The notes beneath the pieces are model-generated. The model was not told where the DNA came from and made no database searches. It was given only the letters and a program-made list of their open reading frames with translations. This document shows positions 33,860 to 39,800 of a DNA stretch of 64,000 bases, one piece after another; position 1 is the stretch's first letter, and every line of letters begins with the position of its first letter. The position numbers were made by a program, and so were the translations under genes. Origin of the DNA: Stylophora pistillata (taxonomy: Eukaryota); contig NW_019217804.1 in NCBI RefSeq assembly GCF_002571385.2, forward strand, positions 841,450 to 905,449, given 5' to 3'.

Positions 33860-36800
33860 ATGGTTTCTTTTATCTGTAATGTATGTGGTCAAACAGTTCG
33901 GAAAGCTCAGGTTGAAAGACACTATCAGAACGACTGCCGTAATTGCGAAGTTCTGTCGTGCATCGATTGCGGAAGGGACTTTCACGGTGATGAGTACGCT
34001 TCCCATACATCGTGTATATCTGAAGCAGAAAAGTATCAAGGAAAACTCTACAAACCAAAGGATAAACAGAATAAAGGCGAACACAAGCAGCAAGAATGGC
34101 TTAAGGTGATTGAAAAGTATAACAGTTTTCACATTTTCAGTTTTCAATTCGAACGGCGACATCGGCTAGTGGAAGCTTAGTCGCCCATGATCAGACTTAG
34201 CTTATACACGAGCATTGAAGTAAGCAGTTTAATGTGGATCTTTAACCCCTTAACGCCCCATATTTGACTTTTAGGTAGTACACATCTTAACTCTGCCGTC
34301 ATGCTATAACACATTTGCTTGTAAATTAGTTACGAGAATTTGATGTTAGATCAAGATAACTACCTCTACCTGATAAAAAAAAACTGAATGAACTGATAGA
34401 GCCTATTATTTTTATTATAAGAACTAGAATGTAAAATGTTCAAATACTTTTTGTAAGGTGTAGAGCTGCAGTTTGCAGTACTAAGACAATCCCTGTGGTG
34501 ATGACTTAACTTAGGACACCTATGATCACCTCAAATAGGATGATTTCACAAAAGTTATTGTATCTGAACAGGGAAATAATCTTTAGATCAATAATTTGGT
34601 TTTACAACGGATTTTTTTTTTTCACATCCAGAGGAGTGATGAACGTTTTTCTGTTTTATCACACTCTTTTGGGAAAGTGATGCACTTGAATTCCCAAATT
34701 TAACCCTATAAATTATGTTTCCTTTGGTGAATATTTCCAAGTATAAGTTTGATTATAAAACATTTTTGGGTCAAAAGAAAATGTCTTTTTCTATCTTTTG
34801 TATCAGCAAGTGAGAGAGGCATCAAGATCCGAAAAAGTGGATCCGCGTTTGTCCCACCTTTTGGATAGAATTAGTGAATATTCCAATATTCCAAGAAAGA
34901 AAGCTAAATTCCAAGTAAGTGAGATATTCATATACAGTGTTTTTTATGATAAACTTTAAAGCAGTGGTTGCATAAAATGTTAGACTTATCAGGTAAGGTA
35001 CGTTTTCAATACAGGGTTCATGTAGCTTATCCTTACAGGGCTCGAAATAACAGCTGGTCAGTGAACAATGTCCAGTCAAATATAGGTTTTGTCCAGTAAA
35101 CTCCTTCATTGGAGGGACATTTTTGTTGGGTTTTTACACATCGTAAATATGATTATAAATAAGAATTTAGTTCGGAGGGAAGTTCAGGGTTTAAATACAG
35201 CTTTAACACTTTACATGCATCAAGTTCAAAGGAGCATGTACAATAAAAGCATGGTAAATATGCTTATTTTATAAGGTGATAGGGGAAAAGCCTGAACATT
35301 ACTTGAAATTGTTTCTCTTTCTCTCCCTCTTTTTTTCTTAAGTTTGTCCCTGTGGTGATGACTCGGCTTAAGACTCTTAACAAATAATTTTTTCTAAAAT
35401 GATGATTAAGCTGTACTTCAGTTTTAGTCTCATTGAATGTTTTTTATGGTGTTGTCAGAATTTCTGCAAGAATAGCATTGGTGTGCAAGATGATGCAACT
35501 TTGGACAAGCTGTGGGACCTTTTCTCGGATAGTGCAAAGGTCAGGATAAAATATTGTGAAATTTCACAATATTTTACATTGTAATTCTATTTTGCAGTCA
35601 CAATGATAGGTGAATTCTTTACTTTAAATGAAGGTAATAGAAGGTGTAGTAGAGTCTGAGTTTGAGCCTAGGCAAGGGTTATTAATTGTGTTCTGTACTT
35701 TAAATTGAGGTAATAGAAGGTGTAGTGGAGTCTAAGTTTGAGCCAAAGCAAGGGTTATTGTGTTCTGTGCTTGGCAGGGATCTTAACCCTTTAACCCCTG
35801 TGAGTGACCAAGACAGAATTTCTCCATACAATATTAACACATTGACACCTGAACCGTCTGTAACCACCCGAACCTTGCGATCGCCTTGTGCGAGAACACT
35901 TTCCCCCTACCTCCCCTACTAAGTGGAGTTTTGTTCCCAAACTTCCTCTGTAGTTTGGAGATCAATAAGCCAATCAGAATCCGTCGTTTGTGCATATATT
36001 TTGTCGGCTTTAGGGGGTACTAGAGGGGCATTATTCTATGCGTCTTCACTAAATGATCGAATTTGAAAATATGGCGTCCGCGCAGCTGACCCTCAAAATT
36101 TTCAGGTCGGATTTTTCATTCATTTGCGATCGAGTTAGACCTTGTGGAATTCAGAATGTAAAGTAACAATGCTATAGAATACTCTGCTTGGAAAAGAATG
36201 GATATCCAGGTCTTAAAAGTGACAGAATAAGCTCTCGAGTCAATGACACTACTATTCTCTAAGGCGATGCGAATTATGGACGTAAAGTGAAAACCGAATT
36301 TTCGGACTTCAAGCAGGGCCTGGCGACAATTTGACGATTCGATGGCCCAGTAAATATTATGTTCGAGTAACAATGTGTTCAAAAAGTATAGTTTCATAGA
36401 AGATTTTGCCTCAAGTCGAAGTTTTTTCAGAATTTTCAACATAACACTGCGCAATTTCTGGCCATGAAGGCAAGTAAACAACGATCTAAGCATGATGAAT
36501 TTTACCGCATGGGCTTTGTACACGTAAGAAATTCATATGTTTTTCGCTTATAACAGCAAATCAAAAACTGTTTTGAATAAATCTGACGTCCCGAAATATT
36601 TCTTGGCCATTTTAGTCTTGCTTCCTATTGATAGATTCCATGGAACTTGAGATCTCTTCACTCACGGACAAATTTGCATATTCCCTTTTGAAATATGATC
36701 CACATGCCCATTTTCACACATGCAAAAATATTTAGCGATTTTTATCTTTCATCTTGATTTTTGAGTTAAAACCTAATATGCACCTATCGCTTTTTTCGCC

Positions 36801-39800
36801 GGAAATAAGTTCTTTAATTAGTCCTCTTTCACTGGAGTTTGTTTCTTGAAAAAACCGATTTTTAAAAATTTACTGCACATTGTGTTTGCCTCCTTGGTTT
36901 CTCCAAAATTTTGACTTTTTGTCGGCGCGTGTTACACGTAAGTGTCAATGGGTTAAGTCTACAAGTATAGAGAATAAGGAAAATATAAATTAGGGAATTA
37001 TTAGTTCATCTAGTACCAAATTCTCCAAAAAAAAAAACAAAAAAAACATAAGAACTATGTGGCAGACAGTAAGGAGAATTACTAATGACATATTTGGAGT
37101 GAAAGAGTTAACTCTCACAGCACCTTTCTTTGACTGTGCATATAAAAGGTGTAGGCAAGCTTTCAGGGAATCTTGTCACAATGTGGAGGGATAACCCACG
37201 CTTGGACTACCCAACAAGGAGGAGTATTAATACTTGGTTGCCTCTTGGTTACATTCTTCACATGTTATTCAAGAATATACATGTTATTCATGAATATACA
37301 TGTACAGTGTAGAGGTTGTTTTCTGACTGTGTATGTCTGCGTCCTGTGACATTCAGAAAAAGGAGCTAAAATGAGATTCAGTAGTTGTGCAACATCGTTC
37401 AAGACTATTTGTTTTGAATACTTTTATGAAAGTGTGTTTAGATGTATGTGGGCGAAAGCATTCAGAGTCATTGTAGCTTGAAGATACAGCTGTAAGTGCA
37501 TATGTGCACCATCTAAGTCAATCATTTTTGTGTCACCAGAAGTCGCAACAACAGGACATAACTAGCAGCAATGGTGTAGTCGATCATGAAAAAAGCAATG
37601 GATCATCTTGTCAAAATAATGCAGAAGATGAATGTAATGGAATTTCTACAAAACACATGGTAAAAGAAACAAATCATGAAGTTGATAACAGTAACAAACA
37701 AAACTTAAAAGGAAAGAAAGATGAAAAGACTAAAAAACACAAGGAAAGAGAAAAATCAAAAGACATTGACTCTTGTGAAAGTGAGCAGAAGTCAAAGGTA
37801 AAGAAACACAGAAAGGACATACATGGGAATGCAGAAGAATCAGATAAACTTGTTAATATTGAAAATAAGCAGAAAAGAAAAAGAAGTGAAGAGAAAGAAT
37901 TTAGAGGTGAGTTTCTGAACTGTAGCTCCTCAGACATTATTTACTTATGTTCATAACTGTAGAACCAAACCATCATGGCAATGACCATATAGCACATTGA
38001 ATTAACATACATGTAAGGTGGAGCTGAAGAATCATTATATGGATGAGTTTTTTTCAGCAAAATTCTGTTGAACAGTGGGTAACTGAAGAAACACAAAAAG
38101 TTTATTTCAGGTTGCAGAAGGTCATGTTTCTCAGAGTTTGGATTGTCTGATTTTGATTCATTTCATTTTTTCACCTTTGATCTTTGAGATGCCTTTAACC
38201 ATACCAATAGATGCACATAGAATTTAGTGGTCAGAGGCCAGTTTCTTGAAAGTCTTGGTAACTTAACGGGTCCGAAGCCATGTTTTAAAATCAATATTTA
38301 ATGAATAGGAAAGCAATTTCTAGCACCAAAACCAGTCCTTTTTGTTTCTTTAACTGATAGCTTTACTGTATCATTTTCAAAATTTTTGAAATCCCCATTT
38401 TGAATGAAAACAGAACAGCTTTACGGGCCGGTTAATTTACCGGGACTTTTGAGAAACGGGCCCCAGGGCACGGGTGGGAGTGGGTTAAAGTATAGAGTTA
38501 AGGGTTTTTAAAAGGTGCAGTGAGGTTGTTGCCCGATAGGGTTTTTGGTTAATTAATGTAAATGTGAGTAGCACTGTAGGTGATGCTGGTCTAATAATTA
38601 TGTTTCTGCATGCTATGGTATCCATTTCACTCTTACTCCTGCAGTGATGACTTAACTTAGGACACCTTATGAAACCTTCAGGGTGATTACAAAACAGTTT
38701 TACCTCTGAGCAGAAGTCAGTAAGAGTTGTTGGTTATCATTACCCCAAATTTTCTGTGGCATTAAACCATTTAAGTGGATGAATGAGTCACTGTGGTTTA
38801 GACAGGTGTCTTGGAAATTAAGGTTTCGACTCTTTCATCTGTAGAAAAATTGACTGAGAGGGTGAGTTCTTAGTACATTAACAATGTATTTTTACACTTA
38901 CTGTATAAGTGTATTCAGTATCTTCTCATTATTAAGGTTATATATCTTTTCTAGCCTAACACTCTGAAAGTAAGAGAAAACTGTTCTTCAAGAGAATAGA
39001 TCCAGTTTCAGATCATCTCTTTTTTTATAGAAAAAGTTTGTTAGGTGTGGGAAATGAGAGTTGACTTCTTTGGTTATGAAAAAATGCCACATTAAGCAGA
39101 TGGTGTGATCCTCTAGTACAGTTACAGTGTATGGTTATGTTGCATACAGTTAGTCTACTTTAAAGGTGTACTCATTAAGTTTAAATGACTAATAACAACA
39201 GCCAAAAACTATTCATCAAGTGATCAGGTAGTATGGACACACAAGATAAACCCCTCTTTTCCTACTTATTTAGTCTATCAGAATACAGTATTTGCTTCAT
39301 CTTGCCCACCCATGTTGCCAGCCTTCAACAATGGAATGTTTAAAGCAGAATGCTTTCTTAATTTGAAATTTTTATATTACCTTTTTATGCAGTTGAACAT
39401 CAACAATCCAAGGTATTAAAAATGATGGAGAGTGACGAAATAAGTGGTGATAAAAGTGAGTGACAACACGGGTTCCATTAGGTTGTCTTTGTTTCCTTCT
39501 TAAATTTCCTCTATTACTTTCCTACCAACTCAACTCTTGTAAATTATGAAGTTCTCACTTCTGCAATGATGACTTAACTTAGGACACCGATGATCACCTT
39601 GTGGAGGATGATTTTAAACAAAGTTGAAGTTCTGAGCAGCTCTTAGTGAGAGAAACTTAGATTAAGGTTGTTTATATTCTGTAGATACCACAATTAGTAC
39701 CTGCAATTACCTTGTACCCCCATTCATAAAAACTAACTTTTATTGTTAAACACCAAAACATCGTAAAAATGCACACCTTATCTTGAAGGACACCTTATTA

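What the first reader, a model, noticed from the sequence alone, without database searches (positions are those of the whole stretch)
34491..39639. LYAR acts as host gene for a cluster of U58/SNORD58-like box C/D snoRNAs, at most one per intron
Seen: three intact C/D units in introns 1, 4 and 5, each with a terminal stem and the conserved guide CTTAGGACACC(T), while the rest of the sequence diverges. A decayed fourth copy sits in intron 2. Known: the guide is antisense to the 28S rRNA segment AGGUGUCCUAAG targeted by vertebrate U58, which is hosted in RPL17 introns; LYAR is itself a nucleolar rRNA-processing factor. Inference: a host-gene difference plus intron-to-intron amplification and loss, which would couple LYAR expression to rRNA methylation. 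An ORF-based annotation cannot see this.
Basis: partly seen in the sequence, partly recalled or inferred. Interest (0 to 1): 0.72.

Follow-up and report, generated by a model that had tools for sequence, protein, structure and literature searches.

The report
U58-like snoRNA trio in coral LYAR
Three small guide-RNA genes sit in introns of a stony coral's LYAR gene, where other stony corals also keep such copies, and they likely direct methylation of two neighbouring ribosomal RNA bases, with one copy predicted to aim at the second base because it carries one extra letter.

Summary
LYAR (7 exons, 362 aa; introns 1-4 confirmed by RNA reads) carries intact box C/D units in introns 1, 4 and 5 and a decayed one in intron 2. 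All three hit Rfam SNORD58 but fall below its gathering score (39.8, 32.8, 30.5 vs 42 bits). Their guide pairs 11-12 bp with this genome's own 28S. None was found in its RPL17 introns. Nine other coral contigs carry such units among LYAR exons, and they are the only intronic sequence conserved. New here: the intron-4 copy has one extra base before box D'. By the five-base-pair rule it would guide the U equal to human Um4227, and the other two the adjacent G (Gm4228). Other corals keep a separate +1-register family in IK/Red and a neighbouring PDZ gene; it was not found in this genome. Host switching and intron-to-intron duplication are known. Regulatory coupling to LYAR is unsupported. Expression and methylation were not shown.

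The parts
33860..42663 (+). LYAR host gene, 7 coding exons: 33860-34105, 34807-34914, 35459-35539, 37540-37906, 39393-39455, 42022-42107, 42526-42663 (362 aa, zf-LYAR)
   Evidence: relatives named cell growth-regulating nucleolar protein
34491..34574 (+). U58-like C/D unit, intron 1; register 0; 12-bp guide; predicted target G equal to human Gm4228
35348..35425 (+). Decayed U58-like copy, intron 2: box C and C' kept, guide mutated, box D lost
   Evidence: (20 bits, E 9.5e-5)
38637..38716 (+). U58-like C/D unit, intron 4; one extra U (38668) before D' gives register +1; predicted target U equal to human Um4227
39559..39642 (+). U58-like C/D unit, intron 5; register 0; 11-bp guide; predicted target G equal to human Gm4228

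Best explanation
Three U58/SNORD58-like box C/D snoRNA genes lie in LYAR introns 1, 4 and 5; they are likely released from LYAR pre-mRNA and likely split one job, with the intron-1 and intron-5 copies predicted to guide 2'-O-methylation of the 28S G equal to human Gm4228 and the intron-4 copy predicted to guide the adjacent U (human Um4227). Shown: the boxes, the pairing to own 28S, the host introns, conservation in other corals, and the one-base register difference. Inferred: expression, fibrillarin binding, the methylated bases, origin by intron-to-intron duplication, and take-over of the U role by the intron-4 copy from a separate coral family (F2) not found in this genome. LYAR most likely serves only as a broadly expressed host.
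For: Pairing is 12, 12 and 11 bp with own 28S; the fifth base before D' faces G, U and G. These bases lie 32 and 31 nt after the second P-loop G, the same spacing as Gm4196/Um4227/Gm4228 in human and Gm2620/Um2651/Gm2652 in Arabidopsis (PMC8583080 table). Against 9 coral LYAR contigs, 63 of 63 BLAST matches fall on exons (21) or snoRNA units (42), none elsewhere in 7.7 kb of intron. In all three window units D' (AUGA) faces a C' with a complementary U, which supports the D' call. C' position 7 is A in 3 of 3 register +1 LYAR-type units and U in 19 of 19 register-0 units (related sequences, about two events). In the tree F2 splits from the LYAR type at 100/100 and the intron-4 copy is LYAR type. 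In 6 of the 7 record-prefix groups holding both types, every LYAR-type unit seen is register 0 and F2 is +1. In the seventh, LYAR has a +1 copy (L025, L040) and F2 (L054) has the longest branch, 0.38. F2 is absent from the orthologous IK and PDZ introns here. Registers are mixed within 3 of 17 other multi-copy loci.
Against: There is no evidence of expression. In four 150-nt RNA libraries the bin holding the intron-1 copy had depth 0, and the low depth near the others (up to 3.3) spreads into the next bin; such libraries are poorly suited to 70-nt RNAs. Methylation was not measured. All units are below the Rfam gathering score. Base counting is not infallible. One yeast C'/D' motif with overlapping D' boxes AUGA/UAUGA methylates two adjacent bases (PMC5389607), and copies i1 and i4 also read UAUGA. 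Three plant-labelled loci show register +2, although Arabidopsis snoR10 is assigned to the U; their orthology was not tested. The fish-type RPL17 copies are +1, yet human SNORD58A-C are tabulated for the G (PMC11550049). Box D lies 239, 683 and 2386 nt from the 3' splice site, far from the roughly 70 nt optimum recalled for mammals. Absence of F2 rests on a fragmented assembly. The metagenome contigs are partial.
Confidence: 0.68

Rival explanations
1. The three copies are redundant guides. The extra base in intron 4 is absorbed by the C'/D' loop or is neutral, so all copies guide the same base, or each guides both.
For: Unusual C'/D' motifs can shift or double the target (PMC5389607 passages). 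Human SNORD58A-C are all tabulated for Gm4228, although the Rfam consensus and the fish-type copies are in the +1 register. Register +2 occurs in plant-labelled loci.
Against: Both registers recur side by side within or between loci (window, L025, L051, L068, and L038 by eye). All 6 F2 rows in the alignment are +1. C' position 7 changes with the register.
Confidence: 0.24
2. LYAR was selected as host so that its expression sets the level of this rRNA methylation.
For: The association holds in 9 other coral contigs. [quoted passage not shown]
Against: U58-like units lie among exons of at least six other kinds of gene, including a PDZ gene with no evident ribosome role. Broad expression is reported to be the main requirement for a host (PMC3511168 abstract). 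No co-variation data exist here.
Confidence: 0.12
3. The units are silent relics or chance matches.
For: No RNA signal; scores below Rfam gathering; folding no better than shuffles for two of three intact units.
Against: Box C, guide, D' and box D are invariant in 22 of 22 aligned units while spacers vary. These are the only conserved intronic sequence. A truly decayed copy (intron 2) looks different. No other intact copy was found in the genome.
Confidence: 0.04

Closest known systems
Vertebrate SNORD58A/B/C (U58; Rfam RF00151, clan CL00064), hosted in RPL17
   Same: Same 5' D' guide and 28S target; several copies in different introns of one host. SNORD58C was predicted to guide Um4197 (=Um4227) in PMC1636440 (table passage).
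   Different: Host is LYAR. D' is AUGA, not UGGA. Units are longer (76-80 vs 65 nt) and below the gathering score. Two registers are written into separate paralogs, whereas the 6 fish-type copies tabulated are all +1.
Arabidopsis snoR10 (25S Um2651; adjacent Gm2652 without a known guide)
   Same: Same two-base site; the authors suggest one snoRNA might serve both (PMC8583080 passages).
   Different: Here separate copies with different spacing are predicted to serve each base. Sequence homology to snoR10 was not tested.
Yeast U18, U24, snR13, snR48 dual-site guides (PMC5389607)
   Same: Two neighbouring methylations depend on C'/D' register; U18 has the same AUGA/UAUGA D' region.
   Different: Those use one RNA with two conformations; here two registers exist as paralogs.
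Cis-duplication and host mobility of intronic snoRNAs (PMC3511168 abstract; PMC3412847 and PMC1636440 passages)
   Same: Copies spread to neighbouring introns, decay, and change host gene.
   Different: No difference in kind. LYAR, IK/Red and the PDZ gene as U58 hosts were not found in the searches made.

Membership tests
Box C/D methylation-guide snoRNA | Terminal box C (RUGAUGA) and box D (CUGA) | tested here: met
   3 of 4 units; the intron-2 copy lacks box D
Box C/D methylation-guide snoRNA | Internal D' and C' boxes | tested here: met
   D' AUGA with C' RUGAUU(U/A), complementary at stem II
Box C/D methylation-guide snoRNA | Short terminal stem | tested here: met
   4-bp stems in the Rfam alignments; the longer stem of i1 appears in its fold, z -2.68; i4 and i5 fold no better than shuffles
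Box C/D methylation-guide snoRNA | Antisense element of 10 nt or more next to D or D', matching own rRNA | tested here: met
   12, 12 and 11 bp with L005, an LSU rRNA at 2251 bits
Box C/D methylation-guide snoRNA | Accumulates as a stable small RNA | tested here: inconclusive
   No snoRNA-sized signal in 4 long-RNA libraries; no small-RNA library among the 24 runs listed
Box C/D methylation-guide snoRNA | Binds fibrillarin and methylates the target | not testable with these tools
   needs IP and RiboMethSeq
Rfam SNORD58 (RF00151) | Score at or above the gathering cut-off of 42 bits | tested here: not met
   39.8, 32.8 and 30.5 bits; hence filed as SNORD58-like, not as an Rfam member
Rfam SNORD58 (RF00151) | Best-scoring snoRNA family, full model length, identical guide | tested here: met
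   model positions 1-65 of 65; E 4.6e-6, 4.3e-4, 2e-3 on 6.9 kb; E 4.3e-5 to 0.018 on the whole window
Vertebrate U58 locus | Hosted in RPL17 introns | tested here: not met
   No hit in own RPL17 stretch L008 by Rfam, guide words or profile R1; caveat: L008 has 61 runs of 7+ T, some inside coding exons

The most novel reading that the evidence does not exclude
The adjacent 28S pair Um4227/Gm4228 is served in many animals by two register paralogs of one U58 family, and the U-register role is repeatedly handed over. In this coral lineage a LYAR-intron copy gained one base and replaced a lost IK/Red-hosted guide. In vertebrates, whose copies are all in the U register with a deviant D', SNORD58 would itself be the 'unknown' guide of Um4227 and reach Gm4228 through an alternative C'/D' fold.
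Probability: 0.35. Interest if true: 0.58.

Novelty: new variant of a known kind. Interest (0 to 1): 0.42.

Why it matters
It adds unannotated ncRNA genes that Rfam's cut-off misses, in a clade with little snoRNA annotation in the papers searched. It also gives a natural matched pair of guides differing by one base next to box D', a direct test of the five-base-pair rule at a site near the P-loop. There the guide of human Um4227 is listed as unknown (PMC11550049) and that of Arabidopsis Gm2652 as not found (PMC8583080). It also offers a possible case of compensatory take-over between snoRNA paralogs. It is not a new kind of system: host switching and intron-to-intron duplication are well described.

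Tried and rejected
Rfam at gathering score over the window: 0 hits. Genome-wide RF00151 search found only 1 of the 3 known units, so it is too insensitive to show absence. Other genome pattern hits (5 of 8, 8 of 11, 5 of 7) were checked by eye for box C/D context and score nothing under profile R1 apart from one 21-nt partial match at E 0.035; control counts were similar, so they were rejected as chance. A DNA search of the genome with an F2 unit found nothing, without a positive control. MIR-family hits at 39969-40125 are a generic hairpin far below gathering scores. RNA-seq depth inside introns 1 and 3 comes from repeats (reads 90-95% alike, with loose ends). A closer look at reads and at a relative's contigs around the intron-4 and intron-5 copies was not obtained, so conservation of the extra base in close relatives is open. 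The tree (22 rows, 85 columns; L034, L060, L113, L120, one L117 unit, duplicates and the decayed copy left out) cannot say whether the +1 copies in intron 4 here and intron 1 of L025 arose once or twice. Host genes stayed unidentified for most non-coral loci: 200 of 282 listed ORFs plus one exon were scanned. Earlier findings of this scan: three look-ups, nothing returned. Paper searches for a prior report: LYAR + snoRNA + host gene, 9 papers, none on this by listing; SNORD58 + Nematostella, 0; cnidarian/coral snoRNA, 9, none on this by listing; SNORD162 or LYAR, no SNORD162 mention in the 12 listed. No supplements were opened; snoRNA tables there, or subscription papers, could hold such an annotation.
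Full report
Observation. The window comes from a stony coral: the closest named relative of exon 1 is a Pocillopora protein at 96% identity, and several runs holding the stretch are labelled coral metagenome. The host gene is LYAR, with seven exons from 33860 to 42663 giving 362 residues. A database protein of the same length differs at 7 positions without gaps and carries zf-LYAR. Splice joints for introns 1-4 appear in 4 of 4 RNA runs. 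Three intact C/D units lie in introns 1, 4 and 5, and a decayed one in intron 2. Box C plus guide (21 nt, up to one mismatch) occurs three times in the genome, all here, against none for the reversed control.

Family. Rfam gives no hit at gathering score. By E-value, SNORD58 is the best snoRNA family for all three units over the whole model, at 39.8, 32.8 and 30.5 bits against a cut-off of 42. I therefore call them SNORD58-like. The target is in this genome's 28S (locus L005), pairing 12, 12 and 11 bp. The own RPL17 gene (L006, L008) shows no such unit by Rfam, guide words or a coral profile. That stretch holds 61 runs of seven or more T, some inside coding exons, so the absence is likely but not certain.

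Conservation. A scan of metagenome contigs for box C plus guide gave 115 stretches, held as 109 loci. LYAR exons were found in 7 of 109, and in 2 more of 23 selected loci by a more sensitive search (L117 E 2e-6, L101 E 0.005). The units occupy intron 1 (L031, L060, L067, L108), intron 4 (L101, L108, L117, probably L035) and intron 5 (L072, L101, L117). L025 has them in introns 1, 2 and 4. So the intron-2 copy is intact in another coral and decayed here, and L072 has none in intron 4: real gain and loss. Of 63 BLAST matches between the window gene and these nine contigs, 21 fall on exons, 42 on the units and none elsewhere. RPL17 exons flank the unit in 3 of 109 loci, all of the vertebrate-like UGGA type ('fish-type' is my label). 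Other units lie among exons of ubiquitin genes (L020, L036, L038, L068, L084), PUF (L081), RPS27a (L086), IK/Red (L089) and a PDZ gene (L049) (same strand and close by, intron position not checked for each).

The intron-4 copy has one extra U between guide and D'. By the five-base-pair rule (PMC5389607, passages), copies i1 and i5 point at a G and copy i4 at the U before it. These lie 32 and 31 nt after the second G of the P-loop (which G this is, I recall). That matches human Gm4228/Um4227 and Arabidopsis Gm2652/Um2651 in PMC8583080 (table passages). The D' call is backed by stem II. AUGA faces a C' with U at the matching place in all three window units, and UGGA faces A in the fish-type units. 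C' position 7 is A in 3 of 3 register +1 LYAR-type units and U in 19 of 19 register-0 units, though these are relatives and amount to about two events.

A second coral family. Ten loci (L029, L034, L049, L054, L070, L085, L089, L097, L105, L120) hold a distinct U58-like unit, F2, always +1. It sits after an IK/Red exon in L089 (L054 has a similar exon, by eye) and inside a PDZ gene in L049/L085. In this genome the two genes lie 9 kb apart on one strand, and neither orthologous intron has a unit. No other intact copy came from three pattern searches (checked in 24, 45, 83, 84). F2 and the LYAR type split at 100/100, and the window's intron-4 copy is LYAR type, 76-80% identical to those and 56-68% to F2. 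Of 11 record-prefix groups with coral-type units, 7 hold both types. In 6 of these all LYAR-type units seen are register 0. In the seventh, a LYAR intron-1 copy is +1 and F2 has the longest branch in the tree. Some short loci are assigned to the LYAR type by sequence alone. This fits a hand-over of the U role but rests on two lineages and partial contigs. More widely, of 115 distinct matches 71 have a D'-like word and a box D: 37 in register +1, 26 in 0, 6 in +2 and 2 in +3; registers are mixed in 3 of 17 multi-copy loci.

Mechanism. Most likely LYAR pre-mRNA is spliced, the introns are trimmed to the C/D units, and the snoRNPs methylate the two adjacent bases through their D' guide; no second guide is conserved before box D. 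These steps follow from established snoRNA biology and were not shown here. Four long-RNA libraries give no snoRNA-sized signal, and no small-RNA run was listed. Against strict base counting: a yeast motif with the same AUGA/UAUGA overlap marks two bases, plant-labelled loci are +2, and human SNORD58A-C are tabulated for the G with Um4227 unknown (PMC11550049, table passage), while PMC1636440 assigns SNORD58C to the U (table passage). Box D lies 239-2386 nt from the 3' splice site; intron 5 is much shorter in L072 and here contains an inverted repeat around an assembly gap.

Comparison and verdict. Intron-to-intron duplication and host change are known (PMC3511168 abstract and one table passage; PMC3412847 passage; PMC1636440 passage). 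LYAR's role in rRNA synthesis and processing is in PMC6821171 (passages), but the range of other hosts argues against special coupling. Term look-ups in PMC6984369 and PMC13736004 found no mention of U58 or LYAR. In the Drosophila preprint 10.1101/2023.05.25.542231 I saw passages on naming only; in PMC8393311, passages naming Um4197 and Gm4198. No paper reporting LYAR as a U58 host appeared in searches or 76 (listings only; no supplements read). Verdict: a real, conserved cluster; a new variant of a known kind; its main interest is the register split. Interest 0.42.

Noticed in passing
L049:5994-6066, L085, L089:2459-2538, L054:1910-1979; own genome L141 and L127: Second coral U58-like family (F2, +1 register) in an IK/Red intron and in the neighbouring PDZ gene. 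L049 and L089 share only about 135 nt around the unit, suggesting a local copy between neighbouring genes. Absent from both introns in this genome.
   Followed up: yes
L017, L061, L065, L122: Vertebrate-like U58 units (three loci with RPL17 exons) have D' UGGA facing C' AUGAAA in the +1 register, which by strict counting points at the U (human 4227), not the G they are annotated for.
   Followed up: partly
L020, L036, L084: U58-like units, up to three per locus, between exons of intron-split polyubiquitin genes, several with an unusual D' region; organisms unknown.
   Followed up: partly
window 40509-40667 and 41700-41858: 159-bp inverted repeat (97% identical) flanking the N gap in intron 5, probably a transposon; it lengthens the intron behind the third unit.
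   Followed up: partly
window 35785-37110 (intron 3) and 34309-34361 (intron 1): Repeat elements attracting many RNA reads from other copies (90-95% alike).
   Followed up: no
window 39512-39900: Low sense-strand RNA depth (up to 3.3) at the start of intron 5 in 3 of 4 runs; could be intron retention or an alternative 3' end.
   Followed up: no
window 39985-40110: Hairpin matching several plant MIR families far below their cut-offs; probably a small inverted-repeat element.
   Followed up: no
window 61533-62642 (+): Intronless 369-aa DRG-type GTPase (MMR_HSR1 + TGS; the name DRG is recalled).
   Followed up: partly
window 30420-30809 (-): Exon of a family-7 galactosyltransferase, on the opposite strand upstream of LYAR.
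   Followed up: partly
window about 5840-6721 (-): ORF with a signal-peptide-like start, running into an N gap, that resembles cnidarian MACPF-like proteins (recalled resemblance, not tested).
   Followed up: no
window 3621-5300, 20003-24701, 50291-54467: Fragments of non-LTR and LTR retrotransposon ORFs (labels by eye).
   Followed up: no
L008 (own RPL17 stretch): 61 runs of seven or more T in 9.9 kb, some inside coding exons; cause unknown; it limits claims of absence in such stretches.
   Followed up: partly
L127:2940-3930: Inverted and tandem array of tRNA-like (SINE-type) repeats in a PDZ-gene intron, seen by eye.
   Followed up: no
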